DNA of 64,000 bases. It comes from Nitrospirota bacterium (GTDB taxonomy: Bacteria > Nitrospirota > UBA9217). Positions 1-60,466 of the stretch are shown one piece after another. The first letter of the stretch is position 1. The number at the start of each line of letters is the position of its first letter. The stretch covers positions 77,557-141,556 of the forward strand of contig DATIZR010000061.1 of NCBI GenBank assembly GCA_035516965.1, in the 5' to 3' direction. A model generated the notes under the pieces. The model was not told where the DNA came from. It saw nothing but the letters and a program-made list of their open reading frames with translations, and ran no database searches. A program made the translations under genes and the position numbers.

Positions 1-238
1 CCGGGTTACCGGTCAGTGGCGCATTGAGAAGTAAAGGACTTAACCCCTAAAGCGGGTCAGGATCACAGCGGCGGGTCCGCTCCCGATTTTCACGGGATTC
101 CCTTGGCTTGAATGTCTCTCTCTATGTATAAGTGTTACATGTATACCACCGGTATCGGGCAAAGTCAATTTCATTTTCAGAGACTTATTTATATTGCTTC
201 AGGAAACAAAGAAACAAGATCCTGATCGCAAGGCATCT

Positions 239-877
239 TCAAACGATCCGGATGCCATCGATAAGCACGTACGTGTCGTGTTTGATATAGCGCGTTCCCG
301 TCACCGTCAGGTTCGCGTTGTTCTGGAGGTGCATGAGCGTCTGCCGGTCGAACCCCGCGCCGTAGACCTTCGCTACAAGGGGAGCAAAGAAATCCTGCCT
401 TTTTCTGAGTTTTGGGTCGCCCGAATACTTCATTTCGAGAAGCCGGAACCTGCCGCCAGGCTTCAACACGCGCGCAAATTCCGAGATCGCCCGGTCCTGC
501 AGTTCATGGGGCAGGACGCAGCAGAGAAAGAACGCGACGACCCAGTCGTAGGTGTTCGAAGGGACCGTCGCCATCTGCGAAGCGTCTTCCAGAACGAACT
601 TGACATTGCACGTTGCTTCGCTGCACCGCTTCGATGCTTTCTTCAGCATGGCGGAACTGAAATCCATTGCAGTCAGGTCCACGCCTGCTGGGTAGTATTT
701 CAGGTTGCGCCCGGTGCCGACGCCCGCTTCCAGTGCCTCTCCGTGAACATCTTTCAACAGCTCGGGTCGCCACTTCCGGTATTGGCGCTCCCAGGGGTAA
801 TCCAGGATATCGTAGAACCACGCAGTAACGGCATATCGCTTCTGATTTAACAGGTTCAACTCCTGCGTGCGGTCCAT
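239..877 (-). CDS. class I SAM-dependent methyltransferase (methyltransf_11-like)
   Basis: 212-aa ORF with glycine-rich SAM motif LEAGVGTGRN and motif II/III spacing. Start is 2 nt after the stop of the upstream candidate selenoprotein gene. Confidence 0.85.
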   Translation of the reverse strand: MDRTQELNLLNQKRYAVTAWFYDILDYPWERQYRKWRPELLKDVHGEALEAGVGTGRNLKYYPAGVDLTAMDFSSAMLKKASKRCSEATCNVKFVLEDASQMATVPSNTYDWVVAFFLCCVLPHELQDRAISEFARVLKPGGRFRLLEMKYSGDPKLRKRQDFFAPLVAKVYGAGFDRQTLMHLQNNANLTVTGTRYIKHDTYVLIDGIRIV

Positions 878-879
878 CG

Positions 880-1137
880 CTATCCTTCTTTCACGAGAGC
901 CGCCTTGAGCTGTTCGTAGGAGATCATTCCCCTTTTCACGATAAAACAGTCATTGACCTTTACCGAGGGACAGGGTGGCGCATCCTTTTCCGATGCATAT
1001 TCAGGGGCCGTTTTCTTGATCACGATAATTTCCGCGCCGAATTCCTGCTCCGCCCGACGGGCGGACTCGATGTGAGACAGTCACCACTTACCCATGGGAT
1101 CGTTCATGTACAGCGTGATGGTGCGTTTTTTTATCAT
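880..1137 (-). CDS. candidate selenoprotein: 85-aa thioredoxin/glutaredoxin-fold protein with in-frame TGA (Sec codon at 1081-1083, codon 19)
   Basis: ATG at 1137 with AGGAAA RBS; frame reads MIKKRTITLYMNDPMGKW-TGA-LSHIESARRAEQEFGAEIIVIKKTAPEYASEKDAPPCPSVKVNDCFIVKRGMISYEQLKAALVKEG to TAG at 880-882. The TGA sits where the first Cys of a Trx/Grx CxxC (W-C motif) would be. C-terminus resembles small Trx-fold proteins (P-x-V-x-V-N-D-x-x-V...eL). A 6-bp GC stem-loop (CCGCCC-GUC-GGGCGG, about 1050-1064) lies 16 nt downstream of the UGA, consistent with a bacterial SECIS. Sits between an Rdx/SelW gene and a methyltransferase in a tight operon. Confidence 0.45.
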
Positions 1138-1178
1138 CGTTTCCTGTCCGGGCAGAGAGGGAAGAGCGGCGGGCCCGT

Positions 1179-1415
1179 TCACTCGGGGCCCCGCCGCTTC
1201 CTGAGAATTTCGATGATCTCTTCCTTGGACGGGAAAACGCCCGAGACAGACTTTGAGAAGACTGTCTCTCCGTCCGCAATGACCGTGAATGCACCGCTCT
1301 CAGTCGAGTGGACCAAGACCGGCTTGACGCCGAACGCTTCCTGGATTGCCAGCGAGAAAGCGGCCGCAATGGGCCGGTAATTGCACGTCCCGCAGTATTC
1401 AATGGCTATCTGCAT
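1179..1415 (-). CDS. SelW/Rdx family redox protein (Cys form, CGTC motif)
   Basis: 78 aa, MQIAIEYCGTCNYRPIAA... typical Rdx/SelW/SelT N-terminus with CxxC (CxxU in selenoprotein versions); both codons verified as Cys (tgc). Confidence 0.8.
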   Translation of the reverse strand: MQIAIEYCGTCNYRPIAAAFSLAIQEAFGVKPVLVHSTESGAFTVIADGETVFSKSVSGVFPSKEEIIEILRKRRGPE

Positions 1416-1434: not shown

Positions 1435-1620
1435 CTACATCTTCTTCAGCTCGGACCTCTTGATCTTGACGTGTTCTCCGTCCGCCATGACCACCCGGAC
1501 CGTTGTGGCCGAATGATATTCCTTTTCCATGCACTCGTATTCGGCGTTCTTCGTGAGGGATACTTCCTTGCCACTGATGGTTTGCACTTTCTTCGTGTCG
1601 CCAATGTACTGGACCTTCAT
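1435..1620 (-). CDS. hypothetical small protein (61 aa)
   Basis: ORF in same orientation between the RACo and Rdx genes; no recognizable family. Confidence 0.4.
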   Translation of the reverse strand: MKVQYIGDTKKVQTISGKEVSLTKNAEYECMEKEYHSATTVRVVMADGEHVKIKRSELKKM

Positions 1621-5582: not shown

Positions 5583-6275
5583 TTATTCGATCAGCACGAG
5601 CCCGCTCCAGACGACCTCATGTTTCGGTGGAATGTCGAAGGGAAGCCCCGCATTCTGGCTCGTTTTCACCACGTCGATGCCGACGCCTTCCATTGCCGGC
5701 CGCGCCTGGTAGGCCCGGCGGCAGCCCGCCCCAGGACCTGCACACGACGGGCAGAGCATGCAGTCGCCCCCGATCAGGCCCAGGGCATAATGAAATCCGA
5801 GGGCCATGGCCTGGGCCTCCACTTCATTCACCAGTTTGTGTAGCCTGACAGCTTGCAGCTTGACGTCATCCAGGTTCCTGCGCGCTTCATCCGGTTCGCC
5901 TCCTTTCTGCGCAGGATCGGTGTTGTGGGATTCCAGGAACTTGAGGACCACTTCCTTGTTGAAATCATCCATGGCCAGGGAGAGCGGCGCCTTGGTCTGA
6001 ACCAGAACTGCGGTCCGGTACTTGCTCAGCGCCGTCCTGAACTCATCCACCGTGGGCACATTGGGAGGACAGGTCAGCGTTCTGCCAAAATGGGGACAGC
6101 GCGGGATCTCGCACTTCATCCGCACCCGTTCGTCGACGACGATCTTGCGCGCCGAAAAGGCCTTTGCCTTCCAGGCGCCTTTGTCGAGGGCGAACTGCAC
6201 GACCTGAGCGATACGCTCCGGTACGCCGTTTTTCTTCTTCCCTGTCGCTTTTCGCGCTGTCCCTGCCGCTGTCAT
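5583..6275 (-). CDS. DUF2284 family predicted metal-binding protein
   Basis: Cys-rich motifs (CEIPRCPHFG, CMLCPSC); family commonly encoded next to corrinoid methyltransferase genes. Confidence 0.7.
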   Translation of the reverse strand: MTAAGTARKATGKKKNGVPERIAQVVQFALDKGAWKAKAFSARKIVVDERVRMKCEIPRCPHFGRTLTCPPNVPTVDEFRTALSKYRTAVLVQTKAPLSLAMDDFNKEVVLKFLESHNTDPAQKGGEPDEARRNLDDVKLQAVRLHKLVNEVEAQAMALGFHYALGLIGGDCMLCPSCAGPGAGCRRAYQARPAMEGVGIDVVKTSQNAGLPFDIPPKHEVVWSGLVLIE

Positions 6276-6277
6276 CA

Positions 6278-6511
6278 CTACTCCTTGCCGCCCATTGAGA
6301 TATAGAATTTGGGCTTATAGGTATCCACATTCACCATGTCCTGGTTCAGCACGACGCGCTTCTTCTTCCAGCAGGCCGGGCACATGTACCGCGACTTGAA
6401 GCCACGGTCGGGCCCTGTGTAGCGGAGCTCCATATGGGCCCTGCAAGCCTTCACCCCGCAATCCGCGCAGATGAAATCCGCCTTCCCCCCGCACTTGAAA
6501 CATTTTTCCAT
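6278..6511 (-). CDS. small zinc-ribbon protein (77 aa, 8 Cys in CxxC pairs)
   Basis: MEKCFKCGGKADFICADCGVKAC...CPAC; AGGAGG RBS; overlaps the downstream gene start. Confidence 0.55.
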   Translation of the reverse strand: MEKCFKCGGKADFICADCGVKACRAHMELRYTGPDRGFKSRYMCPACWKKKRVVLNQDMVNVDTYKPKFYISMGGKE

Positions 6512-6634
6512 GATTCATTCCTCCTATCCCCGGACAAGCCGGAACTAAAACTTGACACAGATAAAGTCCGATAAAAAATTACGAAAAATCATGATCCTTC
6601 ATAAGCAATCTGTGCAGATCAGTGTCAAAACCTT

Positions 6635-9340
6635 CTAAGTCGTCAGCCGCTTGTAGATCAACGGCAGCCGCACCGGCAGCGTTTCCACGTTTTCGATGAG
6701 GGTGTAGTTCGTTTCCCCGTACATGTACGGAAGGTAGTCGCGGCTCTTTTTGTCCACGGTGATGCAATACGAGAAGACCCCTTTTCTTTTGGCCTCCCAG
6801 AGGGAATGCCGCGTGTCCTCCACCGCATAATCGGCATCCCCGTAATCGATGTCATAGGGCCTGCCGTCTGACAGGAGGATCAGGAGCCGGATCCGCGAGT
6901 TCTGCCGGCTGAGCAGCCGTGTGGCGTGCCGGATGGCCGCTCCGAGCCGCGTCTGGGCCATGGGTTTGATATAGTCGAACCGCTGCCGGAACCGGGTGGG
7001 AGACTTCTCGTCGAAATCGCGGATCACATAAAAATCCATCTTGTCCCGGTAGTTCGACGAGAAGCCGTACACGGCCCATTGATCGCCGATGCTTTCCAGC
7101 GCTTCGGCCATCAGCACCAGCCCCTCGCGCTCGACGTCGATGATCGTCTTGCCCGAGGGCAGCTCGTCGCCCGTGGAATAGCTCATGTCCACCAGAAAGG
7201 CTACGGACACGTCGCGCAGGTTCTTTTCCCGCCTGATATAGACCCGGTCCGAGGGCGTGATGCCCGCGTGGCGCTCGACGACCGCTTCGATCATGGCGTC
7301 GAAGTCGATATCATCGCCCCGCTCCTCACGGAAGAACCTCTGGATGCGGTCGGGCCGCAGCATGCTGAAGTACCGGCGCAGCACGCTCACCAGGCCGTAC
7401 TGCTCCGCGACCGTTCGGTCGTAGTACGCGGTCGAACTTTCCGGCGTGTCCATCTCCCGCACGCGGACCCAGTCCTTCCGGTAATCCCCCATCTTCGAAT
7501 CCCACTCGTCGTAGTACACGGTCCTGCGGAACCGCTTCTCCGCCTCCATCTCGTCGAGCACGGCTTTGACCTGACCGAAGAGCTCCAGCAACCGGTCCAT
7601 GTCCTGCACCTGCCAGAGGAGTTCCTCGGATTCGATGACGGCTTCTTCCTCGATGCGCGTGAGCGCGGCGTTCACCAGTTCCGGCTCCACTGTTGATTTC
7701 CTGTCCGCGAACCGCTCGACGAATTCGATCGTCAGGCGCTTCATGCCCTGGCGGGCGTTCTCCACGAGCTCGTAATCGATCACGCCGCGATAGAACAGGC
7801 GGTTCCCCGCTTCCCGGTTCTCCGAGATCTCACAGGCATCCGTCCCGTCCAGCGATCGAAGAAGCTCCACGGTGAGCTCGAGCACTTCGCGGGAGGAGCA
7901 GCCCGGACGCAGCACGCGGACGAGTGAATCCCTGAGCAGCGCGCCCAATTTGTCCCCTGCACCCGGCGAGGCGTCGTAGCCCTTGACGTCCCGGAGGCCG
8001 AGCTGTTCGAAGATCGATCGCTCCGTCTTGCCCAGCGCCCGTTCCCGGGCAAGGTAGGCGTTCATGATCAGGTCCCGGTCCTTCCTGAGGCCCGGGTATG
8101 CACTCATCATCAGGAAATCCACCCGCTCATCTTCGAGAAATTCGAAGACGCGAAACGCCTGTCTGGGGTTCGGGAGGGCGCCAAGGCCGGCCCTCACCTC
8201 GGAAGCCGGGAGTTCGAAGGTCCCGTGCAGCAGATGGGCCATTTCGTGGGTCAGGATCCACTTGTACGTCGTAAAGTTCGTGTCCTCGTCGGGGAAGGCC
8301 TCGATCCGCGCCGGCAAAAAGATGCGTGCCCCGTCCGTGACGGAGAAAAACCGGCTCAAACCGGGCAGGTTCTTGTAAAAGACCGACGACGAGCGCAGCA
8401 TGATCTTCGCGCCTATCAGGGCTTCGGCATAGTCCCGCAGGACCGTATGGATGTCTTTCAGCTCCAGACCCTTGACGAGGCTCTCCATCGTCGTTCGGCT
8501 GGACCCGGTCTGGAGCGAGAAGAAGGATTGCCCCTTGTCCGCCTGACTGTCGACGTTCTCCAGGCCCCGGGATACCCACTGCTCGAGATCTTTCATGGTG
8601 AGCCTGCCCAGGATCTGCGGCGCCGACTTGAAGTACTGCAGGGCCAGGTCCGCCTTTTTCGCTTTTCCCGCTGATGCGCCGGTAGCGAGCAGGCTGTGGG
8701 CCGAGTAAGCGGCCTTGATGTTCGGTGCCTTGTCGATCAGCAGCAGGCCGAGAAGTGCCCAGCGGTCCAGGTCGCAGACGTCGATCTTTTTCATCACCTC
8801 GGGACTGGACCGGAAATATTCCCGGCCCGTTTTCCAGGATTTCTGCGTGATCTCCACGCCGCGCACTGCCCAGCGTTCGAACGCCTCATCGCCCACGCTG
8901 TCCAGCATCGAGGGGCTCGCCTCCAGATATTGCAGCGCCACGTCCTGGTCCTTGTCAGCCAGCGCAGCCGCGATCTTCGCCCATTCCAGGATCACCGCGT
9001 CAGGCCTTCCTTTGAGGCGCGGCAGCCCGCGGAAGAGACTTTCTACGACGCTCCACTTTGACTTGCCCATCAGGGTGAAAAGAGAAAGGAGTTCTGTTCG
9101 CACGGAAAGGCCTTCCACGGTCTGTAATGCCGCATCTCCTGAGGAGAGAAGCGACAGGGGCAGCGCCCTGTCCAGCGACTGGAACTGCCGGACTATGCCG
9201 AGGTAGCACTTCAGGCCCTCGTCATCGATGATCCCGCGCAGCCGGGAAACGGCCCCGTCCACGCGTTCCTTGCCGAGTTCCACGGCGATCGATGCCGCGA
9301 GCACGGCGATCTGCTCCTGTATGGTGTCTTCGGTTGTCAT
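6635..9340 (-). CDS. VWA domain protein of the CbbO/NorD family (partner of CbbQ-type MoxR ATPase)
   Basis: 901 aa; C-terminal von Willebrand A domain with MIDAS DMSYS; 4-nt overlap with the upstream cbbQ-like gene. Confidence 0.8.
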
Positions 9341-10170
9341 AGAACCGCCGATACGATCTCCTTCAGTGTTTTCTGGATCTCCTGATCGTCGGTGATAGGC
9401 TTGATCAGGGCAACCTCGCAGGCGCGTCTGGGTTCCACCCCGCGGGTGACCAGCACGCCGGCATAGATCAGCAGACGCGTGCTCACACCCTCGTCGAGCC
9501 CTCGGTCCTTGAGCCCGCGGAACTTTTCCGCGATCTTCCTGAGTTCGGATGCCGTCTTGTGATCGACCCCGCTCTCGTGCACCACGATCTCCTGCTCCAG
9601 GCTGGCGGACGGATAGTCGAATTCCAGCGTGATGAACCGCTGCTTGGTGCTCTGCTTCAGGTCTTTAAGCACGGTCTGATAACCGGGGTTATAGGAGATG
9701 GCCAGCATGAACGAGTCAGACGCCTCAAGGATCTGCCCTCGCTTTTCAAGGGGCAGCACCCGGCGGTCGTCCGTCAGGGGATGGATGACCACGGTGGTGT
9801 CCTTCCTTGCCTCGACGATCTCATCGAGGTAGCAGATGCCGCCGTGGCGGACCGCAAGGGTAAGGGGGCCGTCCTGCCAGCGCGTCGATCCGCCGTCGAG
9901 CAGGTATCTGCCCACCAGGTCGCTTGCGGTAAGGTCTTCGTGGCAGGCGATCGTGATGAGCGGCTGCCCGACCTTGTATGCCATGTAGGACAGGAACCGC
10001 GTCTTGCCGCAGCCCGTCGGTCCTTTCAGCATGAGCGGCAGCCGGTTCTCATAGGCGATCCGGAAAAGCTCCACCTCGTCCTGTATGGGCAGGTAGAAGG
10101 GCTCTTGGGTGATCTTGTAGTCCTGCATGCTCTTTTCCGTCGCATGTGTCGTCATCATTGATTCTTGCAT
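9337..10170 (-). CDS. CbbQ/NirQ/NorQ/GvpN family AAA+ (MoxR) ATPase
   Basis: Walker [25 protein letters not shown] motif, strong family-level match to CbbQ. Confidence 0.9.
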
Positions 10171-10189
10171 ATCCCCGCCTCCCCTTCGC

Positions 10190-10618
10190 TCACTGATTCT
10201 TCTCTTTCGCCTGATCCCGGTTCAGGCCGTACTGTACCTGGACCGCCTCGATCGCCTGTTCCGAAGCCTTCCTGATGGACTCTTCGGAAAGACCGTAAAT
10301 AACCGCATTCATCACCAGCCGGAAGCGCTTCGTTTTATTGCCGTCCCGCCCCGCGACCATGATCTCTCCGTTGCCGCCGACCGTATCGGCGTGAAGGAAC
10401 CCGGAGGAATGCTCTATGAACGCCTTTACGTGACTGACGTCCTTTGCTCCCGCTGCCTCGCACCCCGAGGCCGTCAGATGTACCGCGTCGCAGGCAAGGG
10501 ACCTGAGTTCTGCGGGATCGAGGCCCTCAGGGGATGAGAAGACCCTTTCCAGGCTGTGGCTGTTGATGTCCTGATGGGCCGGATTCTCAGGCTCGGCAAA
10601 TTGAACCTTGAGTTTCAT
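10190..10618 (-). CDS. hypothetical protein (142 aa)
   Basis: ORF translationally coupled (4-nt overlap) to the upstream CobW-like gene; no confident family call. Confidence 0.5.
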
Positions 10619-11232
10619 GTCGTCACCGTAGCGCTCTGGATCCGGCCGGCAAGAGATGACAACCCTTCTCCCGTGACGGTCGAGATCCGGACGACCTCAG
10701 CTCCCTGATTGATCTCGCGCACAGCTCGCGAAGCCGCTTCGAGCTCCTCTGCCGTCACCAGGTCGGATTTGCTCAGCCCGATGATGGTTGCGTCCTTTAT
10801 CTGGAGCGACACCAGGCGCTTGAGCGTATCGTAGGTCAGGAGCTTCGCGGCCCGGGACGTGTCGAACAGGACAATGGTGTGGCCCATCTCCACCGGGTTC
10901 TTCCGCGCCGACAAAAGCACGGTCTGGCGGATCGCGTCAGGGACGGCTATGCCCGTGGGCTCGATGATGACGACGTCGGGACGTACGTTAGCGGCGAGGG
11001 TCTCCAGGGTCTTCATGAGGTTTCCCGCTACCTGGCAGCAGATGCATCCGCCCCCGATGTCCTTGACCGTCAAACCGTATTCCTGCATGACCGCCCCGTC
11101 CACGGGCACAACACCCACATCATTCACCAGGATGGCGATTTTCGCCCCGCCTCCGGCCAGCTTTTTGCTCAGCGCGATGATGAGCGTTGTCTTCCCCGAG
11201 CCGAGATATCCGGCTATCAACACGATCTTCAT
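10615..11232 (-). CDS. CobW/HypB/UreG (G3E) family GTPase, probable metallochaperone
   Basis: P-loop GYLGSGKTT and the G3E metal-binding GGCICC motif. Confidence 0.85.
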   Translation of the reverse strand: MKIVLIAGYLGSGKTTLIIALSKKLAGGGAKIAILVNDVGVVPVDGAVMQEYGLTVKDIGGGCICCQVAGNLMKTLETLAANVRPDVVIIEPTGIAVPDAIRQTVLLSARKNPVEMGHTIVLFDTSRAAKLLTYDTLKRLVSLQIKDATIIGLSKSDLVTAEELEAASRAVREINQGAEVVRISTVTGEGLSSLAGRIQSATVTT

Positions 11233-11248
11233 GGTTCGGCAGCCGCCT

Positions 11249-12265
11249 CTACACCTTGGTCAAGGCCTTCATCAGGGCTTCCATGTTCTCCCGCGGCACT
11301 TCAGGCCAGAGATCGCAGCCGGGCCAGACCGCGTTCGCCCCACCCTTGAGGGAGTCGAGCGCCGCCGGGCCCACGTCCTTGGCCGCGCCCTTGTGGAGGA
11401 CCTTTATGGGATCGAAATTGCCGAGGATGAGGGCCCCGGCGCCGAGCTTCTGGCGCGTTTCAGCAATGCAGTTCTTTTGGTCAACGCTCACCGCGTCCGC
11501 TCCGCATTCGAACATATCCGTGATGATGGCATTCGTATCGCCACAGATGTGCAGGATGCTCGGTCGCGGCATTTCTGCCAGGATCCGGGTGAGATGGGGC
11601 TTGATCAGGCTCTTGAAGCTCCGCGGGCTCATCACATCCGAGGTTCCGCCCATTTCCCGAAGCGTAAAATAGTCAGCCCCGGCCTCCTGGTATACTTTGA
11701 AGACCTCCACGATGAAACCCGAGATCTTTTCCAGGAGTTTGGCCGTCTTTTCCGGTTCGAGAAAGGACTCCTCGAACAACACGTCGAGCTCTTTTATCTG
11801 GCCCGCAAGGGTAAAGGGGCCGAGGACATAGGTACCGATCGCAACGTCGTTCCCAAGCTCCCTTCTCAAGGCCTTGATGGCCTTGACCACCACGGGGATC
11901 CTCCCGGCGTTCCTGATGTCGGTGGGGATCTTGAGGTCGTCGGCGCTGGTAACGACTTTCTCCTTGACCGTGGGATAGAGGAGTCCTTCAACTTCATCAT
12001 AGAAGTTCATCTTCGATCCCAGCGCTTCAGCCTCCACGCCGAGGTCAAAGGGCACCACCGCGCATTCGAAGCCGAATTCCCGGTACATGCCGCCTGCCGC
12101 CCTGGCCATGAGCTCCGGGTCCCGGTGAACCTTTGAAAAAACTATTCCATTTTTGTCCAGGACCGGCTTGATGACATTCCCCATCCCGCTGAATATGGGC
12201 GGACGGTCAACCTTTTCTCCTTTGAGAAATTTCATAACCCGCTCTTTTGCCGTCAATGACGCCAT
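11249..12265 (-). CDS. uroporphyrinogen decarboxylase (URO-D) family methyltransferase (second paralog)
   Basis: 338 aa URO-D/MtaA-like fold; preceded by the conserved palindromic promoter module at 12373-12394. Confidence 0.85.
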   Translation of the reverse strand: MASLTAKERVMKFLKGEKVDRPPIFSGMGNVIKPVLDKNGIVFSKVHRDPELMARAAGGMYREFGFECAVVPFDLGVEAEALGSKMNFYDEVEGLLYPTVKEKVVTSADDLKIPTDIRNAGRIPVVVKAIKALRRELGNDVAIGTYVLGPFTLAGQIKELDVLFEESFLEPEKTAKLLEKISGFIVEVFKVYQEAGADYFTLREMGGTSDVMSPRSFKSLIKPHLTRILAEMPRPSILHICGDTNAIITDMFECGADAVSVDQKNCIAETRQKLGAGALILGNFDPIKVLHKGAAKDVGPAALDSLKGGANAVWPGCDLWPEVPRENMEALMKALTKV

Positions 12266-12372
12266 AACTTCTCCTTTCGCCTCTCGCGCCGATGCCCCGG
12301 TTGCTCCGCAAGCGTCGGCATTTGTTTTCTATTTTTTTTGATGTATGCATACTTCCATGATCGCCGTAAATC

Positions 12373-12394
12373 GTCAATCGGGGAAACCCTGATT
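12373..12394 (-). promoter_or_regulatory. 22-bp palindromic operator-like motif GTCAATCGGGGAAACCCTGATT overlapping a TTGAC -35 element, upstream of the URO-D methyltransferase gene
   Basis: Identical 22-mer also at 15177-15198 upstream of cooS. In gene orientation it reads AATCAGGGTTTCCCCGATTGAC-N17/18-AGTATG, i.e. a dyad centred about -43 (class II activator position) fused to a -35/-10-like pair. Confidence 0.5.
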
Positions 12395-12574
12395 CTCCAG
12401 AATAAAATACCTTAGCCATCCTATTTCGGCTCTCTCATCCGTGTAAGACTTCAGGATGACGAATACAAGGGTAACAGGATAAAAGTGATAGAATAAAATC
12501 GTACAAAAGTAACCTATCAATCGACAACACTCTGCGTTTTATAGAGATAACTCGCTCCTTCCGCTTTTGCCGAA

Positions 12575-13165
12575 TCACAGGTTCTTGATAAGGTCGAGAA
12601 AATGGTCAAGGGTAATGGACATCCGCTCCACAGGCAAGCCGGTAAACACGCTGAACCTTTGCACCTTTATCTCGTCGAGGGGGATAACGCCCGTATCAAA
12701 CACGAGAATCCGTTTGTAGTGTTCGAACATTGACCGGAAATTAAAATCAAAATCTTTTTTCCCCGCTTCGAACATCTTTTCCCAGTTATTGATCCACCCC
12801 GCGGAAAGAAAAAAACTGATTGCCTCGTTGTTGAGACGCGCTACCTCCTCCCGTCCCACAAAGGCCTCGAGACAGTTTCCTGCAGCCAGTTTCTTGGCCC
12901 CGTATCGTTCCAGAATATCCATGATGTCGGGGTGGCAATGTCCGTAAAGAACCTTCATGGTGACCCCCTCTGCCCGGTTTTTTTCCAATGCATCAACCAG
13001 GTTCGCCTTCAATCTGTCGAAGTTCACATGAAGGGCGGCATCAAGGAAGATGACCCGGTGCGGAAATTTATTTTCCCTGATCAAATATTCAATTTCTTCC
13101 TTGAATATTCCGCAGCTGATAAAGATGACGGGGTCCTTTTGCATGATTTCAACCTTTCTCCGCAC
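12575..13165 (-). CDS. DUF1638 domain protein
   Basis: 196 aa; family typically encoded next to corrinoid methyltransferase systems. Confidence 0.7.
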   Translation of the reverse strand: MRRKVEIMQKDPVIFISCGIFKEEIEYLIRENKFPHRVIFLDAALHVNFDRLKANLVDALEKNRAEGVTMKVLYGHCHPDIMDILERYGAKKLAAGNCLEAFVGREEVARLNNEAISFFLSAGWINNWEKMFEAGKKDFDFNFRSMFEHYKRILVFDTGVIPLDEIKVQRFSVFTGLPVERMSITLDHFLDLIKNL

Positions 13166-13194: not shown

Positions 13195-15114
13195 CTATAC
13201 ATCAAAGGCGATCTCCCTCCGTTTTGCCAGGATATGTTCTTCGATCTCTTGAGCTGCCTTGACCGAATCGTCTTGCAGGAGCATTCTGCCGCCGGTAACA
13301 TCGACCATATCTTCGGTGAGGTATTTTTTCACGAGGGGACTGCCGCCGATCATCGGCTCAGGTGAAACATACGTCAGGAGTCCGTAAGCAAGGGCGGTAA
13401 AGATGTCGGCGATCGCCTTTTGCTCCATGTACTCGGGCACGGCCGCGGCTACGGGCAACTGGCTGGTGTCGCAGCCGATGGTCCAGGCGAGCGCCGCCAC
13501 GGTGTCAAGGATCTTACCCACGTCGGTGCAGGAGCCATAAGACACGATCGGAGGCACGTCGTATTTTTCACAGACCGACCTGAGTTTCCTGCCTGCTTTT
13601 TTTGCCATCTCTTTTGTCGACATACAGAGGTTCTGGTGCGTAGAGGAGCAGCATCCGGCCCCGATAACCATGATATCGCGCTTAATGAGTTCCAGCGTCA
13701 GCGTCTCTATCGAGCGGCCTCCCTGCTCATGCCGGGCGTTCGTGCATCCGGCGACGGCCACCGCGCCCTTGATGTTCCCCTTCTTCAGCTCATCGATGTA
13801 CGTGTTGATATTGTTCCCGAACATGGTGAGCACTGTCTCGGTCGTGTAGCCCGCGATGCACTGCGTTCCCTTCGCGCTCTTCGGGATATTGACGATTCTC
13901 TTTTTGTCCGCCTTCCTCGCTTTGAACTGTACCATGGCCGCATGGAGGATATGATCGGCCTGCTCGTCGGCTTGAGCGGGGTCGAAATCAACCGCATCCA
14001 CGCCGGGAAAGCGCACGACGGGGTCGGTGCTGATCAGCCTTGTTCCATATTTGTCAGCATAGTCCTTCAGAGTCGGCACGGAACAGTTCAGGTCCATGAG
14101 AAAGAGATCGATCAGCCCGGTGGCGATAAAGAGCTCTTCCTGTATCCAGTTCCCCAACTGCCCTCCGAAGATCTCCCGGTAATGGCCTTTACCCGAAACG
14201 TTCATGAGCTGCTGGCCCTCGCAGAGAGATCCGTAGAGTTTGATGCCCTTTGCCCCTGCATCCCGGGCGGCGGTCTGGAACGCTTTTCCTGCGGCTTTTT
14301 CCATGATGTGTCCGGCGAAGACCGGCTGGTGGCCGTTGGATACGATGTTCACCGTCTCCGGATCGAGACAGCCGACGTTCGACGAACCATTGACCAGTTC
14401 AGGCGTGCCGAGCAGAATATCCTGGATGACCGTGATCCCCCAGAGGCCGACGTATTCGTTTGCAAGACCGAGTCTCAATGCGCTCTGCATCAGATCGACA
14501 GGGTCATTGCTGACATTGGTCATGCACTTGGTGAGCGCGGTCAGGATCTCCGAACTCGGCCCGCCTGCGTAGAGGCCCTTTGCTTTCCAGAGTTCCCTTC
14601 TCTTGTCGACGGCAAAAAGGTCCATGAGCGTCATGGGCTCGTCACCCTGTTTGCCTATCTCGCGGAGGATGAAATCGGCGAACTGTGTCGCGAGCTCATG
14701 CACCGGCCGGGTGTGGTCCCAGCCAAGCCCCTGGCACATCCTCTGGAGTTTGCCTTCGTCCCTGAGCTTCAAGGGGGACTTCCCTTCGCCTATTGCCTTG
14801 AGCGTAGTAGCGAGATTGCGGCACTGGTAGGTGTTCGCAGCAGTGCCGATCGCCGCAAGTTTGAGCAGGTTGCGGGCGACAATGACATCGCCGCTTGCGC
14901 CGCACACTCCGAGCGGAGCCTTGCTCGTGATCCTGCAGGGGCCGTCGGAGCATAACTGGCAGCTGAGCCCTTTCTTGCAGGTGCCGCATTGGGGTTGCTG
15001 GGATTCGAACCGCTCGAAGACGGTGCTCATGCCCTGACTGACAGCGGCCTGATGCAGTTCGTGGCTTTGCTTGTCCTGATGACTTTTCTTCACAACGGTG
15101 ATTTTCGTCTGCAT
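13195..15114 (-). CDS. cooS: anaerobic Ni-dependent carbon monoxide dehydrogenase catalytic subunit CooS
   Basis: 639 aa; N-terminal QPQCGTCKKGLSCQLCSDGPCRI (B/D-cluster Cys pattern of Ni-CODH); size and conserved Cys/His positions fit CooS rather than the shorter hybrid-cluster protein. Confidence 0.85.
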   Translation of the reverse strand: MQTKITVVKKSHQDKQSHELHQAAVSQGMSTVFERFESQQPQCGTCKKGLSCQLCSDGPCRITSKAPLGVCGASGDVIVARNLLKLAAIGTAANTYQCRNLATTLKAIGEGKSPLKLRDEGKLQRMCQGLGWDHTRPVHELATQFADFILREIGKQGDEPMTLMDLFAVDKRRELWKAKGLYAGGPSSEILTALTKCMTNVSNDPVDLMQSALRLGLANEYVGLWGITVIQDILLGTPELVNGSSNVGCLDPETVNIVSNGHQPVFAGHIMEKAAGKAFQTAARDAGAKGIKLYGSLCEGQQLMNVSGKGHYREIFGGQLGNWIQEELFIATGLIDLFLMDLNCSVPTLKDYADKYGTRLISTDPVVRFPGVDAVDFDPAQADEQADHILHAAMVQFKARKADKKRIVNIPKSAKGTQCIAGYTTETVLTMFGNNINTYIDELKKGNIKGAVAVAGCTNARHEQGGRSIETLTLELIKRDIMVIGAGCCSSTHQNLCMSTKEMAKKAGRKLRSVCEKYDVPPIVSYGSCTDVGKILDTVAALAWTIGCDTSQLPVAAAVPEYMEQKAIADIFTALAYGLLTYVSPEPMIGGSPLVKKYLTEDMVDVTGGRMLLQDDSVKAAQEIEEHILAKRREIAFDV

Positions 15115-15431: not shown

Positions 15432-16079
15432 TCAAAGGGATGTTAATCCCTCGCGGATCGCGTATTTCGTCAATTCAGCGACGGTATGGATATTGAGCTT
15501 TTCCATGACTTTCATCCGGTGCGTTTCGATGGTCTTGATGCTCAGGTGCAGCTGAAAAGCTATTTCCTTGGAGGTCTTTCCTTCAGCCATGAGCTGGAGC
15601 ACCTCCCGCTCCCGGTCGGTTAAATGGGAGAAAACGCTCGGTTCTGATTTCGATGAGTTTCGCACGAAATGGTCCACGACCACTCCTGAGATGCAGGGGC
15701 TGAGATAGGTCTGGTTCTTCAGCACCGTCTTGATGGCGGCGAGCAGTTCGTCGACCGCGCATTGCTTGAGAAGGTAGGCCGTTGCCCCCGCCTTGAGCAT
15801 TTCCGATACGAAATGCCGGTCGGAATGCATGGAGAGCGCGATCACTTTGACACCGGGACGGTCTGCGACGATCTGGCGGGTGGCTTCGATGCCGTTCATG
15901 TCGGGCATGGCAATGTCCATGACGACGACGTCGGGCGACAATTTCTTCGCAAGGCGGACTGCTTCCCTGCCGTCCTCGGCTTCGCCGACCACCGCGAGCT
16001 CCGCATTCTGTTCGAGCACCATGCGCAGACCCCCGCGCATCATGACGTGATCGTCTGCGAGAAGTACCTTGATTTTCAT
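15432..16079 (-). CDS. LuxR/NarL-family response regulator (REC + HTH_LuxR)
   Basis: Receiver motifs LLADDH, VVVMDIAMP, KVIALS; C-terminal LuxR HTH (LTDREREVLQLMAEGKTSKEIA). Confidence 0.9.
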   Translation of the reverse strand: MKIKVLLADDHVMMRGGLRMVLEQNAELAVVGEAEDGREAVRLAKKLSPDVVVMDIAMPDMNGIEATRQIVADRPGVKVIALSMHSDRHFVSEMLKAGATAYLLKQCAVDELLAAIKTVLKNQTYLSPCISGVVVDHFVRNSSKSEPSVFSHLTDREREVLQLMAEGKTSKEIAFQLHLSIKTIETHRMKVMEKLNIHTVAELTKYAIREGLTSL

Positions 16080-18436
16080 TCCCTGACAGCCTCCGCGTTT
16101 TCTTCCCGGTCGAGGGGCGAGGTCACCGTCACCCGAGTGCCCCGGCCGGGCCCGGTATCGATCGAGAGGGAGCCCCCGAGGTACTTCAACCGCTCCCGTA
16201 TGCTGAAGAACCCGAAGGTCAGGTCCGTGTCGATCTTCGAAGCATCGAACCCGATGCCGTCGTCTTCGACGACGATTTTTATGGCGCCGGCCTCCCGGCT
16301 TATGCCGACATTCACTTGGTGCGCCTGGGAGTGCTTCACAATGTTCATGAACAGCTCACGCACGGTCTGGAACAGAAGAATGCTGACATCTCTCTTCAAC
16401 GGCTTGGGGCTGCCGTCATTTTCACAGTAGAATAGAATGTAATGCTGTTTCTGCATCTGCTCCGCGAGCCATTCAATCGTCGCTTCAATGCCAATATCAT
16501 ACAGCAGCGGCGGACTCAGCTCGAAGGACAATGATTTCGTGTAACTGATCGATTGATCGATGAGTTCTACGATGCCGCCGACGGCCTCCTCGTGGGCGTT
16601 CCCGGACAGCGTATTTCTGAGGACCCCGAGCTTGATCCTGGTCAGGGCGAGCATTTGTCCGATATTGTCGTGAAGGTCCATGGCAATTCGCCTTCTTTCC
16701 TTCTCTTCGGCGAGCAGCAGCTCCGAGGCCAGGAGCCTCAGCTGCTCCTGGTAGGCGTGGAACTGCTCTTCGGTCTTCTTCCGCTCGGTAATGTCACGCT
16801 GGACCGAGACAAAGTGGGTTACCTTTCCCCGTTCGTCCCGCAGGGGGGTGATCTGCCACTCCATATTGAACTGCGTGCCGTCTTTCCGTGTGGCCACCGT
16901 CTCGATATAAAAGGCCTTGCTCTGGGATGTGCCTGTCTCCAGTTTATTCCACTGGGTGCTGTCGGTGAGCGGCCCCTGGAGAAGCGAAAGCTTGCCGGTC
17001 ACTTCCTCCGCCGCATATCCCGTCATCTTGGTAAAAGCCGGATTCACGAAGACAACTCGCGACGCGGAGCGCACGGGGGTTGCTGTTGTGATGACGACCG
17101 CGTCTCCCGCCTGCTGGATCGCCGATTCGGTCAGGCGCAGCTTCTCTTCGGCCTTTTTCCGCTCCGTGATGTTATTGAAGAAGGCGAGCGTGGCGGGCCT
17201 TCCCATCCACGTGATCAGGACCGAGTTGATCTCCAGCCATTTGGTATTCCCTTCGCCGTCCAGAACCCGGCAGGAATAATAGGGAGAAACGCTGTCCCCC
17301 TTGATCCTCTTCAGGTGCCGCTCCATCACCATCTCCCGGTCGTCGGGATGAATGAAATCGGTAAAGGGACGAGAGGTCAGTTCTTCCTTCGAATGTCCCC
17401 AGATCTTTACCGCCTTGGGGTTCACGTACCGGAAGAAATTATCCTGCGTGATCAAAATGCCCTCGTTCGCATACTCGACCACGAGCCGGTATTTCTCCTC
17501 TGATTTCCGGAGGCTCTGCTCCATCCATTTGCGCTCGGCGATTTCCTGCTGCAGCTCCTCGTTCGCGATGCTGAGCCGGGCGGTGCCGATCGTCACCCGC
17601 TCTTCCAGGTCGCTGCTCCACTTTTTTAAAAGCTCTTCGTGGTGTTTCTGCACGGTCACGTCGTTGCCGACGCAGAGGACCTCGGTCATGGTTCCGGAAT
17701 CATCGAAGAGTGCCGTGTTCGCCCAGGAAATCCAGGCGGTCTCGCCGTTCTTCCGGATATGTTCGAATTCAGCGCTTGCGTACAGCCCGGGAGCGGCCGC
17801 GATATCGTGCAGCATGGTCTCCATGTCGGGCCCGGGGTTTTCCGTTCTTTGCATGACGGTCCCCACGATGCTCTTCCCGACGAGCTCCTGCTCGCCGTAC
17901 CCGAAAAATCTCTGTGCAAAAGGATTGATGAAGGTGATGACGCCCTTGCCGTCCATCCGCAGGATGATGCTGTTGGCGCTTTCGACGAGGTGCTTATATT
18001 TGGCTTCGCTCTCCCTGAGCGCCTTCCGTGTCTGCTTCTCGTTCGTGATATCCTCTACCGTGCAGATCATGCCGTCGTACGACCCGTTCTTGATATTCGG
18101 GATCAGCCATCCCGACTGGTATGTCTGTTTTCCCGCCAAGGTGCGGATGGAAACCCCGGGATAATACACAGGCCGCAGCGTTGCCTGCGCCTCATCGTAG
18201 TAGGGCTTGAACTCCTGCGTTGCGTGCTCCGCGTTTTGCGGGAAGACCCTTGACCCGATCAGCTTCTGCTGCGTCACTCCGGCGATCATCTCCATTGCCT
18301 TGTTCGCGTAGTAGATGACGTCGTTCTTGTCCGCCACCCAGACGCCGGATGTGATCCCATCCATGATGCTCTCATACAGATGCTTGCTGATTTTGTCCCT
18401 TTTTCGCGGCCCTGCTTCTTTTACCAGTGGTCTCAT
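16076..18436 (-). CDS. multi-PAS sensor histidine kinase (HisKA_3/NarL-type kinase core)
   Basis: 786 aa; several PAS/PAC repeats followed by an HisKA_3 H-box (RRRIAMDLHDNIGQ) and an HATPase_c; 4-nt overlap with the cognate LuxR regulator. Confidence 0.85.
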   Translation of the reverse strand: MRPLVKEAGPRKRDKISKHLYESIMDGITSGVWVADKNDVIYYANKAMEMIAGVTQQKLIGSRVFPQNAEHATQEFKPYYDEAQATLRPVYYPGVSIRTLAGKQTYQSGWLIPNIKNGSYDGMICTVEDITNEKQTRKALRESEAKYKHLVESANSIILRMDGKGVITFINPFAQRFFGYGEQELVGKSIVGTVMQRTENPGPDMETMLHDIAAAPGLYASAEFEHIRKNGETAWISWANTALFDDSGTMTEVLCVGNDVTVQKHHEELLKKWSSDLEERVTIGTARLSIANEELQQEIAERKWMEQSLRKSEEKYRLVVEYANEGILITQDNFFRYVNPKAVKIWGHSKEELTSRPFTDFIHPDDREMVMERHLKRIKGDSVSPYYSCRVLDGEGNTKWLEINSVLITWMGRPATLAFFNNITERKKAEEKLRLTESAIQQAGDAVVITTATPVRSASRVVFVNPAFTKMTGYAAEEVTGKLSLLQGPLTDSTQWNKLETGTSQSKAFYIETVATRKDGTQFNMEWQITPLRDERGKVTHFVSVQRDITERKKTEEQFHAYQEQLRLLASELLLAEEKERRRIAMDLHDNIGQMLALTRIKLGVLRNTLSGNAHEEAVGGIVELIDQSISYTKSLSFELSPPLLYDIGIEATIEWLAEQMQKQHYILFYCENDGSPKPLKRDVSILLFQTVRELFMNIVKHSQAHQVNVGISREAGAIKIVVEDDGIGFDASKIDTDLTFGFFSIRERLKYLGGSLSIDTGPGRGTRVTVTSPLDREENAEAVRE

Positions 18437-58435: not shown

Positions 58436-60466
<2,031 letters not shown>

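What the first reader, a model, noticed from the sequence alone, without database searches (positions are those of the whole stretch)
880..1137. Unannotated candidate selenoprotein: Trx-fold 85-aa ORF with in-frame TGA and SECIS-like hairpin, between a SelW/Rdx gene and a SAM methyltransferase
Reading from the ATG at 1137 (good RBS) the frame runs through a TGA at codon 19 and continues 66 more codons to a TAG at 880, ending 2 nt before the methyltransferase start. The part after the TGA has no alternative start yet shows a thioredoxin/glutaredoxin-like C-terminus (PCPSVKVNDCFIV...ISYEQLKAAL). The TGA occupies the position of the redox-active Cys after a conserved Trp (GKW-U). A GC-rich 6-bp hairpin with GU in the loop lies 16 nt downstream of the UGA, the window expected for a bacterial SECIS. 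Co-operonic location with a SelW/Rdx-family gene fits a selenium-linked redox module. Standard gene callers would miss or truncate this gene.
Basis: partly seen in the sequence, partly recalled or inferred. Interest (0 to 1): 0.7.

Follow-up and report, generated by a model that had tools for sequence, protein, structure and literature searches.

The report
Unannotated TsoC-like thioredoxin-fold selenoprotein
A small gene that the public annotation cuts to 47 residues almost certainly reads a UGA stop codon as selenocysteine to make an 85-residue thioredoxin-like protein; it is a sister clade of the recently named TsoC selenoprotein family, so this is a solid but incremental addition.

Summary
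On the minus strand, ATG 1137 to TAG 880 is one reading frame broken only by TGA 1083-1081.

- **Conserved UGA:** 38 homologous loci carry TGA at this codon (37 with distinct sequences, nearly all those with a named source from Nitrospirota MAGs). Three distinct relatives carry TGC (Cys) there.
- **Upstream peptide is translated:** the 16 codons before the UGA are under purifying selection (dN/dS about 0.14).
- **SECIS:** a 7-bp GC-rich hairpin with loop GUC (1065-1049) starts 15 nt after the UGA. Its codons show strongly suppressed synonymous variation. The three Cys forms lack it.
- **Fold:** an AlphaFold model of a Cys homologue (56% identical) is a minimal thioredoxin fold. Sec sits at the N-terminus of helix 1, and an invariant Cys56 precedes the conserved Pro57, the expected cis-proline.
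- **Family:** the closest is NCBIfam NF045708, "NEPxGxxU motif selenoprotein TsoC". The score is 42.7 bits against a cutoff of 45; hhalign gives 99.4% probability. This clade differs by the extra Cys, by lacking TsoA and TsoB neighbours, and by its partners.
- **Partners:** a Cys-rich SAM methyltransferase here; ArsR, TauE, DsrE/Tus-like and SQR-like genes elsewhere.

Sec machinery could not be checked, and function is inferred.

The parts
880..1137 (-). Full-length selenoprotein gene (85 codons plus TAG stop), a TsoC-like thioredoxin-fold protein with Sec19
   Evidence: Translation. The same architecture occurs in 38 loci carrying TGA. Cys homologues read the two halves as one protein. NF045708 matches residues 6-83 to profile positions 2-83 of 87.
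1081..1083 (-). UGA codon 19, read as selenocysteine
   Evidence: TGA at this aligned position in all 38 Sec-type loci and TGC in 9 loci (3 distinct). It aligns with the invariant Cys of TsoC-scoring proteins.
1049..1065 (-). SECIS-like hairpin UCCGCCC-GUC-GGGCGGA (7 bp, loop 1058-1056), 15 nt after the UGA
   Evidence: Folds. Of pair cells across 35 sequences, 82.9% are paired. Codon entropy is 0.41-0.76 bits in the five hairpin codons against 0.87-2.40 in all 25 other 4- or 6-fold conserved columns (Mann-Whitney p = 2.8e-4). The hairpin is absent from the Cys forms.
970..972 (-). Codon for invariant Cys56 (PPCPSV), immediately before the conserved Pro57, the expected cis-proline; candidate partner of Sec19
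   Evidence: Invariant in alignments A1-A3. It lies just before strand 3 in the model. TsoC-scoring proteins have Phe here.
1140..1145 (-). Shine-Dalgarno-like AGGAAA ahead of ATG 1137
   Evidence: Read directly. Homologous loci carry AAGGAG or GGAG at the same place.
239..877 (-). Partner SAM-dependent methyltransferase with conserved CxxxxC and vicinal CC; starts 2 nt after the selenoprotein stop
   Evidence: Pfam Methyltransf_25/_11. A 77-81% identical gene lies directly downstream in 9 of 11 loci of the GKW-U sub-clade. Cys conservation is shown.
1179..1415 (-). Upstream Rdx/SelW-family gene, Cys form (CGTC); ends in TGA used as a true stop
   Evidence: PF10262 at E 2e-16 and TIGR02174. 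It is the neighbour in 5 of 11 sub-clade loci.

Best explanation
Window 1137-880 (minus strand) encodes an 85-residue thioredoxin-fold selenoprotein.

How the UGA is read: UGA-19 is decoded as selenocysteine by the SelB/tRNA-Sec route (inferred), directed by the hairpin at 1065-1049, which starts 15 nt downstream.

Active site: Sec19 sits at the N-terminus of helix 1, where thioredoxins carry their attacking Cys. Invariant Cys56 directly precedes the conserved Pro57, the expected cis-proline, and can probably close a selenenylsulfide with Sec19 (inferred from general thioredoxin-fold geometry).

Family: the protein belongs to a small clade, found mostly in Nitrospirota MAGs, that is sister to the NCBIfam TsoC family (NEPxGxxU motif).

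Function (inferred from gene neighbourhoods only): it is a dedicated selenol/thiol oxidoreductase or carrier for a sulfur, selenium or metalloid species, working with the adjacent Cys-rich methyltransferase. It would either regenerate that enzyme's cysteines or hand it the substrate, in the way thioredoxin serves ArsM-type enzymes. In the sister sub-clade the same protein sits in ArsR-controlled operons with TauE permeases, a DsrEFH/TusBCD-like relay and an SQR-like flavoprotein. That points to reactive sulfur or selenium handling.
For: - **Frame and UGA:**
- **Truncated database entries:** all 13 first database hits begin after the UGA, yet their DNA carries the conserved N-terminus plus TGA.
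- **Breadth:** 12 of 12 loci from species-representative genomes and 22 metagenome loci carry TGA at the same codon.
- **Cys forms:** 12 full-length Cys forms plus one with Trp; TGC confirmed in DNA.
- **Upstream peptide:** dN/dS 0.14 over 218 pairs; 199 synonymous against 117 non-synonymous codon differences versus the window.
- **TGA is an ordinary stop here:** it ends the two flanking genes, at 1181-1179 and 241-239.
- **Hairpin:** conserved position; loops are GUC, GGUCG or CGUGN; L009 shows three double compensatory pairs. Synonymous variation is suppressed only there. Sec forms fold better than synonymously recoded versions (mean -10.95 against -8.0 kcal/mol), and the Cys forms do not.
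- **Fold:** AlphaFold2 model of P0022 has pLDDT 87.6 with a beta-alpha-beta-beta-beta-alpha order. Foldseek top hits are thioredoxins and MTH895 (PDB 1ilo), TM 0.63-0.67.
- **Family:** NF045708 at E 4e-11 for the window protein, and all 16 tested members hit it. hhalign against TsoC-scoring proteins gives 99.4% probability, E 3e-21.
- **Neighbourhoods:**. Cysteines of the methyltransferase are shown.
- **A second selenoprotein nearby:** 10 related loci carry a neighbouring DsrE-like gene with its own in-frame TGA and a hairpin at the same spacing. These lineages therefore appear to use Sec.
Against: - No Sec machinery could be examined for this genome. There is no tRNA in the window and no SelB or SelD motifs.
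- The hairpin alone is not statistically unusual (z -1.35). Strict covariation is modest: 8 double-change cells, and 27-45 of 500 shuffles do as well. It also overlaps conserved residues.
- No Rfam model applies.
- The Sec19-Cys56 proximity was not measured.
- Function rests only on gene context, and two different methyltransferase families are involved.
- There is no experimental evidence.
Confidence: 0.85

Rival explanations
1. It is simply an orthologue of TsoC (NF045708) that scores slightly under threshold because the model was trained on other phyla. It would then be neither a separate clade nor anything new.
For: The match covers the full length at E 4e-11 and 42.7 bits, against a cutoff of 45. 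It shares the N[ED]PxGxxU motif. hhalign gives 99.4% probability. ArsR regulators next to relatives weakly hit the TsoR model.
Against: The window protein and the two Cys-form relatives of its clade that were scored individually (P0127, P0128) fall at 40-43.5 bits. Cys-type proteins that pass the cutoff (45.5-60 bits) have Phe where this clade has invariant Cys56. No TsoA (LULAxC), TsoB (UxxxxU) or TsoX motif occurs in the window or in any of about 50 related loci. The neighbouring DsrE-like selenoprotein does not hit TsoA. Identity between the two profiles is only 23%.
Confidence: 0.25
2. UGA-19 is read through, but not as selenocysteine. Possibilities are near-cognate Trp or Cys insertion, or a lineage-wide change in the meaning of UGA.
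For: One database relative (P0016) is recorded with Trp at the position. Sec machinery is unverified for this genome.
Against: TGA terminates the flanking genes and, in L003, L005, L007 and L009, the same gene. A hairpin with bacterial SECIS spacing and a G/U loop is under RNA-level constraint. The aligned residue in relatives is Cys, the hallmark of Sec sites. Nitrospirae are reported to carry selB and selC (review PMC13188914).
Confidence: 0.05
3. The TGA is a true stop. The real gene is the 47-66 aa ORF downstream, and the 18 codons upstream are a separate leader peptide or non-coding sequence.
For: This is how every gene caller annotated it. Many relatives have an ATG four codons after the TGA.
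Against: The window copy has no start before GTG 1023. The upstream peptide is always in the same frame, directly abuts the TGA, and has dN/dS 0.14. Cys forms fuse both parts. Strand 1 of the thioredoxin fold is encoded upstream of the TGA, so the short product would lack a core strand and the active-site residue.
Confidence: 0.03
4. It is a pseudogene: a Cys-type gene inactivated by a TGC/TGT-to-TGA mutation.
For: A single-base change separates TGA from the Cys codons.
Against: The same TGA occurs in 37 distinct sequences down to about 50% identity, with continued purifying selection on both sides.
Confidence: 0.01

Closest known systems
NCBIfam NF045708, 'NEPxGxxU motif selenoprotein TsoC' (Haft & Tolstoy 2025, mSystems; listed in review PMC13188914)
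   Same: Same length (about 85 aa) and the same N[ED]PxGxxU active-site motif with a single Sec at the start of helix 1. The conserved Pro, the expected cis-proline, is shared. Homology covers the full length (E 4e-11; hhalign 99.4%). Both have Sec and Cys forms. An ArsR-type regulator lies nearby in relatives.
   Different: The score is 42.7 bits, below the curated cutoff of 45. Cys56 before the conserved Pro is invariant here but is Phe in proteins that pass the cutoff. There are no TsoA, TsoB or TsoX neighbours. The partners differ: a methyltransferase, or TauE, DsrEFH-like and SQR-like genes. The clade is found mostly in Nitrospirota MAGs. The original paper could not be read.
MTH895/ArsE family thioredoxin-like proteins (TIGR00412, Pfam Thioredoxin_3 PF13192; PDB 1ILO)
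   Same: The same minimal 4-strand, 2-3-helix thioredoxin fold of about 80 residues. Foldseek gives TM 0.63-0.67 and 25% identity to 1ilo. Weak sequence hits occur in a few members.
   Different: There is no CxxC motif, only a single Sec plus a distant Cys before the conserved Pro. Sequence scores lie far below the family cutoffs: the best individually reported TIGR00412 score among relatives is 25.5 bits against 62. The window protein itself gives no Pfam hit.
Other thioredoxin-like bacterial selenoproteins (SaoT UxxC; Sec.1 CxU and Sec.2 UxC of PF13192; HUIPC-motif family), as tabulated in PMC13188914
   Same: Small thioredoxin-fold proteins with Sec at the helix-1 active site, often clustered with other selenoproteins.
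   Different: Those have a Cys two or three residues from the Sec (CxU, UxC, UxxC). Here the residues after Sec are L-S-H with no nearby Cys, and no NCBIfam model other than TsoC is hit.
Thioredoxin-dependent disulfide cascade of ArsM/AS3MT arsenite methyltransferases (from my own knowledge, not tested here)
   Same: A Cys-rich class I SAM methyltransferase paired with a thioredoxin-fold reductant. The window methyltransferase has conserved CxxxxC and CC and weak hits to ArsM-type models.
   Different: The methyltransferase is not an ArsM member (26 bits against 263). Its substrate is unknown. The partnership is inferred from gene adjacency only.
Reactive-sulfur operons under ArsR-type sensors (BigR/SqrR type) and the S. 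aureus cst operon with TauE, a DsrE-domain sulfurtransferase and SQR (from my own knowledge)
   Same: Relatives of the window gene lie directly after an ArsR-family gene with a weak BigR hit (50 bits). They are followed by TauE, TusD/TusC/TusB-like genes and an SQR-like flavoprotein.
   Different: All hits are far below the equivalog cutoffs. The window copy has lost this context and sits in a corrinoid methyltransferase cluster. No persulfide dioxygenase was seen.

Membership tests
Bacterial selenoprotein (Sec-decoding gene) | In-frame UGA conserved among homologues, with coding conservation on both sides | tested here: met
   38 loci carry TGA at the aligned codon. Upstream dN/dS is 0.14 and downstream 0.31.
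Bacterial selenoprotein (Sec-decoding gene) | Homologues with Cys aligned to the UGA | tested here: met
   12 full-length Cys forms. TGC confirmed in 9 loci, 3 of them distinct.
Bacterial selenoprotein (Sec-decoding gene) | SECIS stem-loop shortly downstream of the UGA with G (and usually U) in the apical loop. The usual criterion, from memory of bSECISearch, is that the loop lies 16-37 nt from the UGA. | tested here: met
   A 7-bp stem starts 15 nt after the UGA and the GUC loop begins 22 nt after it. Synonymous variation is suppressed in the stem codons. Covariation is only modest, and no dedicated SECIS program was available.
Bacterial selenoprotein (Sec-decoding gene) | selA, selB, selC (tRNA-Sec) and selD present in the genome | not testable with these tools
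   Only 64 kb of the genome is held. It contains no tRNA and no SelB or SelD motifs. Indirect support: a second TGA-containing DsrE-like gene in 10 related loci, and selB/selC reported in Nitrospirae (PMC13188914).
TsoC (NCBIfam NF045708, equivalog) | HMM score at or above the curated cutoff (45 bits) | tested here: not met
   42.7 bits for the window protein. Its Cys-form clade relatives P0127 and P0128 score 43.5 and 40.2 bits, whereas five Phe-type Cys proteins score 45.5-60 bits. All 16 Sec-form members tested hit the model (best E 2.8e-12), but their individual bit scores were not reported.
TsoC (NCBIfam NF045708, equivalog) | NEPxGxxU active-site motif | tested here: met
   The window has N-D-P-M-G-K-W-U. 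The family consensus is N[DE]PMG[KG][WR]U.
TsoC (NCBIfam NF045708, equivalog) | Location in a 'three selenoprotein operon' with TsoA (LULAxC) and TsoB (rhodanese/DsbD, UxxxxU) | tested here: not met
   Motif scans of the window and all loci found none. NCBIfam scans of the neighbours gave no TsoA or TsoB hit.
Thioredoxin fold / MTH895-ArsE family (TIGR00412, PF13192) | Beta-alpha-beta ... beta-beta-alpha fold, with the active residue at the N-terminus of helix 1 and a cis-Pro before strand 3 | tested here: met
   Model of homologue P0022 (pLDDT 87.6). Foldseek hits are thioredoxins and 1ilo. This was tested on a 56%-identical Cys homologue, not on the window sequence itself. Whether the conserved Pro is in the cis conformation was not measured.
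Thioredoxin fold / MTH895-ArsE family (TIGR00412, PF13192) | CxxC redox motif and family HMM score above cutoff | tested here: not met
   The motif is W-U-L-S-H, with no second Cys within four residues. The window protein has no Pfam hit. Only 2 of 16 members hit TIGR00412 (best E 6e-4) and 3 of 16 hit PF13192 (best E 0.008).
SelW/Rdx family (considered because of the neighbouring gene) | PF10262 match with a CxxU or CxxC motif | tested here: not met
   The candidate gives no Rdx hit. The Rdx match belongs to the separate upstream gene at 1179-1415.

The most novel reading that the evidence does not exclude
The Sec19/Cys56 protein is not a generic reductant. It would be the substrate-carrying arm of a previously undescribed chalcogen or metalloid methylation pathway. 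The selenolate would bind or reduce a sulfur, selenium, arsenic or similar species and present it to the Cys-rich methyltransferase. In the window's lineage this module would have been recruited into a corrinoid (MtaA-like, B12 protein, RACo) methyl-transfer cluster, so the protein selenol could even serve as acceptor or donor in cobalamin-dependent methyl transfer.
Probability: 0.1. Interest if true: 0.7.

Novelty: new variant of a known kind. Interest (0 to 1): 0.45.

Why it matters
- **Annotation gap.** At least 37 distinct loci, including species-representative Nitrospirota MAGs and the record this window seems to come from, list this gene as a 47-73 aa hypothetical protein. The current TsoC model just misses the window copy, and its Cys-form clade relatives that were scored individually also fall short. 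A rebuilt or lower-threshold model would recover the clade.
- **Active site.** The clade adds a second type of active site (Sec plus a Cys before the conserved Pro) to a family whose function is unknown.
- **Testable partners.** Its conserved partners are a Cys-rich methyltransferase, ArsR-type regulators, TauE, a Sec-containing DsrE/Tus-like relay and an SQR-like enzyme. These give concrete hypotheses about sulfur, selenium or metalloid handling in anaerobic Nitrospirota.
- **Overall.** It extends known selenoprotein biology rather than departing from it.

Tried and rejected
- **Structure of the window protein.** I modelled Cys homologue P0022 instead.
- **Profile search of solved structures by sequence.** Only a chance TIM hit at E 0.66.
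- **Rfam.** The gathering-threshold scan found only a cobalamin riboswitch. A permissive scan of 900-1200 gave noise. No bacterial SECIS model matched.
- **Single-sequence folding.** Not significant (z 0.29 for 71 nt; z -1.35 for 44 nt). The SECIS case rests on comparative data.
- **Other selenoproteins or Sec machinery in the window.** A crude TGA-bridged ORF scan, motif scans and Pfam on 30 further ORFs found none. The DUF2284 gene at 5583-6278 is a Cys form.
- **TsoA, TsoB and TsoX motifs.** None in any locus.
- **Haft & Tolstoy 2025.** Not held in the library. A literature search for this clade returned nothing.
- **Source contig.** Look-up through P0005 found no record.
- **Considered and rejected.** Leader peptide plus short ORF, pseudogene, and genome-wide UGA reassignment (see the rival explanations).

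Full report
**1. The observation.**
On the minus strand an ORF starts at ATG 1137, preceded by AGGAAA at 1145-1140. It runs through TGA 1083-1081 (codon 19) and ends at TAG 882-880, 2 nt before the ATG of the next gene. The product is MIKKRTITLYMNDPMGKW-U-LSHIESARRAEQEFGAEIIVIKKTAPEYASEKDAPPCPSVKVNDCFIVKRGMISYEQLKAALVKEG.

After the TGA there is no start codon until GTG 1023. That 47-aa ORF is exactly what a GenBank Nitrospirota MAG record calls a hypothetical protein (P0005). The flanking genes are an Rdx/SelW-family protein in its Cys form (CGTC; 1179-1415) and a class I SAM methyltransferase (239-877). Both flanking genes end in TGA (1181-1179 and 241-239), so TGA is an ordinary terminator in this genome.

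**2. Is the UGA read through?**
A first protein search found 13 relatives. All were 47-66 aa and all began after the UGA position. The DNA of three of them shows the same N-terminal peptide, MKK(R/H)TIT(L/M)YMN(D/N)PMGKW, in frame and directly followed by TGA, with synonymous differences between loci.

A scan of one genome per species found 12 loci: 11 Nitrospirota MAGs and one Rokubacteria MAG. All carry TGA after N[DE]PMG[KG][WR]. A metagenome scan added 22 more. In total 38 loci carry TGA, 37 of them with distinct sequences.

Across the distinct Sec-type sequences the 16 codons before the UGA have dN/dS of about 0.14 (NG86, 218 pairs). Against the window copy they differ by 199 synonymous and 117 non-synonymous codon changes. 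The peptide upstream of the UGA is therefore translated in the frame that reads through it.

A profile search then recovered 12 full-length relatives with Cys at the position (..NDPMGKRC..), encoded by TGC. This is the Sec/Cys alternation that defines genuine selenoprotein families. One relative (P0016) is recorded with Trp there; I did not resolve why.

**3. The SECIS element.**
Fifteen nucleotides after the UGA lies the hairpin UCCGCCC-GUC-GGGCGGA (1065-1049).

- **Taken alone it is unremarkable.** The shuffle z-score is -1.35.
- **Conservation of pairing.** A stem at this place occurs in almost every Sec-type locus, with loops GUC, GGUCG, CGUGN or GGC. Of pair cells, 82.9% are paired, against 37-51% when the 3' arm is slid.
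- **Covariation is modest.** There are 8 double-change cells, and 27-45 of 500 shuffles do as well. The clearest case is L009, with three compensated pairs.
- **Codon usage is the strongest evidence.** The five stem codons (Ala, Ala, Arg, Arg, Ala) have codon entropies of 0.41-0.76 bits. All 25 other conserved 4- or 6-fold degenerate columns have 0.87-2.40 bits (Mann-Whitney p = 2.8e-4).
- **Recoding control.** Sec forms fold better than synonymously recoded versions (-10.95 against -8.0 kcal/mol on average; 8 of 36 with p < 0.05). The three Cys forms do not and lack the hairpin.

Rfam offers no applicable model. From my knowledge of bacterial SECIS rules, the spacing and the G/U loop fit.

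**4. The protein.**
The window sequence gives no Pfam hit. It does match NCBIfam NF045708, "NEPxGxxU motif selenoprotein TsoC", over its whole length at E 4e-11 and 42.7 bits, just below the curated cutoff of 45. All 16 Sec forms tested hit this model. A few also touch the MTH895/ArsE and Thioredoxin_3 models weakly.

The structure tool would not accept the U-to-C window sequence. I therefore modelled Cys homologue P0022, which is 56% identical. The model has pLDDT 87.6 and pTM 0.75, with the order beta1-alpha1-beta2-(short helix)-beta3-beta4-alpha. Foldseek against the PDB returns thioredoxins and the minimal thioredoxin MTH895 (1ilo; TM 0.63-0.67, 25% identity).

The Sec/Cys residue lies at the N-terminus of helix 1, the position of the nucleophilic Cys in thioredoxins. 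An invariant Cys (Cys56 in PPCPSV) sits just before strand 3, next to the conserved Pro57, the expected cis-proline. That Sec19 and Cys56 are close enough to form a selenenylsulfide is an inference from general fold geometry.

**5. Relation to TsoC.**
TsoC is a published selenoprotein family from the "three selenoprotein operon" (Haft & Tolstoy 2025, as tabulated in PMC13188914). I could not read the original paper.

An exhaustive HMM search of 1.84 billion cluster representatives found only 43 clusters at E ≤ 0.001, so the superfamily is small. Five Cys-type proteins pass the TsoC cutoff (45.5-60 bits). All have [LF]P-x-F-P-A where the window clade has P-P-C-P-S. Cys-form members of the window clade score 40-43.5 bits.

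Profile-profile comparison gives 99.4% probability, E 3e-21 and 23% identity. Sec19 aligns to the TsoC Cys, and Cys56 aligns to Phe. No TsoA (LULAxC), TsoB (UxxxxU) or TsoX motif occurs in the window or in any related locus. I therefore treat this as a sister clade of TsoC, not as a member.

**6. Gene neighbourhoods.**
Two sub-clades exist.

- **GKW-U sub-clade (the window, 11 distinct loci).** A 77-81% identical methyltransferase follows directly in 9 loci, and Rdx precedes in 5. In three loci (the window, L002, L005) the pair sits at the end of a corrinoid methyl-transfer cluster. That cluster holds an MtaA/CmuA-like URO-D protein, a B12-binding protein, the RACo activator and a conserved 61-aa ORF. 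Further upstream in the window lie DUF2284, VWA/CbbQ, CobW, a second URO-D, DUF1638 and Prismane genes.
- **Partner methyltransferase.** It keeps a CxxxxC and a vicinal CC in all orthologues and hits no equivalog model.
- **GKR-U sub-clade (26 loci) and the Cys forms.** An ArsR/SmtB regulator lies directly upstream in 24 of 26 and 3 of 3 loci respectively. It gives weak BigR and TsoR hits. Downstream come TauE permeases, DsrE-family proteins, an SQR-like flavoprotein, another methyltransferase family and an MMPL/TP_0789 exporter pair.
- **L011 and nine other loci.** The next gene after the TsoC-like one is a TusD/DsrE-like protein with its own in-frame TGA at the active-site position (KVYL-U-GGC). 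It has a hairpin 15 nt downstream and is followed by TusC- and TusB-like genes.
- **Fusions.** A TsoC-like domain is fused to two rhodanese domains in P0165 and to an MbdU-like metal-binding domain in P0140.

**7. Mechanism.**
Shown: a conserved, translated UGA with Cys homologues; an RNA-constrained hairpin; a thioredoxin fold with the Sec at the catalytic position.

Inferred: decoding by SelB; a Sec19-Cys56 redox or ligand site; and the role. My best reading is a dedicated selenol/thiol oxidoreductase or carrier for a reactive sulfur, selenium or metalloid species that serves the adjacent Cys-rich methyltransferase. It would resemble thioredoxin's service to ArsM-type enzymes. I give about 0.35 to that specific function and about 0.85-0.9 to the protein's identity as a selenoprotein.

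**8. What could not be done.**
The window contains no tRNA, no SelB or SelD motifs and no other convincing selenoprotein gene. The genome's Sec machinery therefore remains unchecked. Indirect support comes from the second Sec gene in related loci and from the reported selB/selC arrangement in Nitrospirae.

**9. Verdict.**
The gene is real, is mis-annotated in public records, and is very probably a selenoprotein. It is not an unknown kind of protein. It is a distinct, under-threshold sister clade of the TsoC family with an extra active-site Cys and different partners. Interest is moderate.

Noticed in passing
window 1-168 (minus strand): Cobalamin riboswitch aptamer (RF00174, 33.2 bits against a 31.5 gathering score), cut off at its 3' end by the window edge. 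It lies downstream of the methyltransferase gene, so it presumably controls the next gene beyond the window. This fits the B12-dependent gene cluster upstream.
   Followed up: no
L011 6282-6638; also L007, L009, L012, L033, L034, L040, L044, L048, L050: A TusD/DsrE-like gene next to the TsoC-like gene has an in-frame TGA at the expected active-site position (KVYL-U-GGCLNFRR). A hairpin (UUUCGCC-GUGC-GGCGAAA) starts 15 nt after it. TusC-like and TusB-like genes and an SQR-like flavoprotein follow. Gene callers truncate it to 76 aa. It gives no TsoA hit.
   Followed up: partly
window 239-877 (minus strand) and orthologues in L001-L005 and L013: The partner methyltransferase keeps four cysteines in all orthologues: KRC-x4-C and FFLCCVLP just after the strand-4 motif. 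This suggests soft-metal(loid) or redox chemistry. It passes no NCBIfam equivalog cutoff; the best hits are PmtA at 64 bits against 390 and CpaM at 55 against 180.
   Followed up: partly
window 1435-1620 (minus strand): A 61-aa ORF with no family hit lies between RACo and Rdx. It is conserved (59-70% identity) at the same position in L002 and L005 and is also detected in L027.
   Followed up: partly
proteins P0165 and P0140: Natural fusions of a TsoC-like Cys-form domain. P0165 is a signal peptide plus the TsoC-like domain plus two rhodanese domains, with a TsoB-model hit of 98 bits. P0140 is the TsoC-like domain plus an MbdU-like metal-binding region (319 bits). Both link the family to sulfur or selenium transfer and to metal binding.
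   Followed up: partly
protein P0016: One full-length relative is recorded with Trp (NEPMGARW-QQNT) where the others have Sec or Cys. This could be a real TGG, or a TGA translated under another genetic code by the source pipeline. Its DNA was not inspected.
   Followed up: no
window 5583-13165 (minus strand): The corrinoid cluster upstream carries unusual accessory genes: DUF2284 (Cys form of a domain found in the MbdU and ArsM/DUF2284 selenoproteins), a 77-aa Cys-rich ORF (6278-6511), a 901-aa VWA protein with a CbbQ/NorQ-type AAA+ partner, a CobW GTPase, a second URO-D-family methyltransferase and DUF1638. A Prismane-family protein follows at 13195-15114. A PAS histidine kinase and a LuxR-type response regulator sit just upstream (15432-18436).
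   Followed up: partly
window 58436-60466 (plus strand): A Lon-type protease (AAA, Lon_lid and Lon_C domains) has a response-regulator receiver domain (residues 116-224) in its N-terminal part, ahead of the AAA domain. A histidine kinase and a sigma-54 activator follow.
   Followed up: no
L015 6001-7092: In the Rokubacteria locus the TsoC-like frame has no stop for 363 codons after the start and overlaps a TauE-like match at 6341-7045. This may be a high-GC open frame or an assembly or frameshift problem. Its SECIS-like hairpin is shifted by 3 nt.
   Followed up: no
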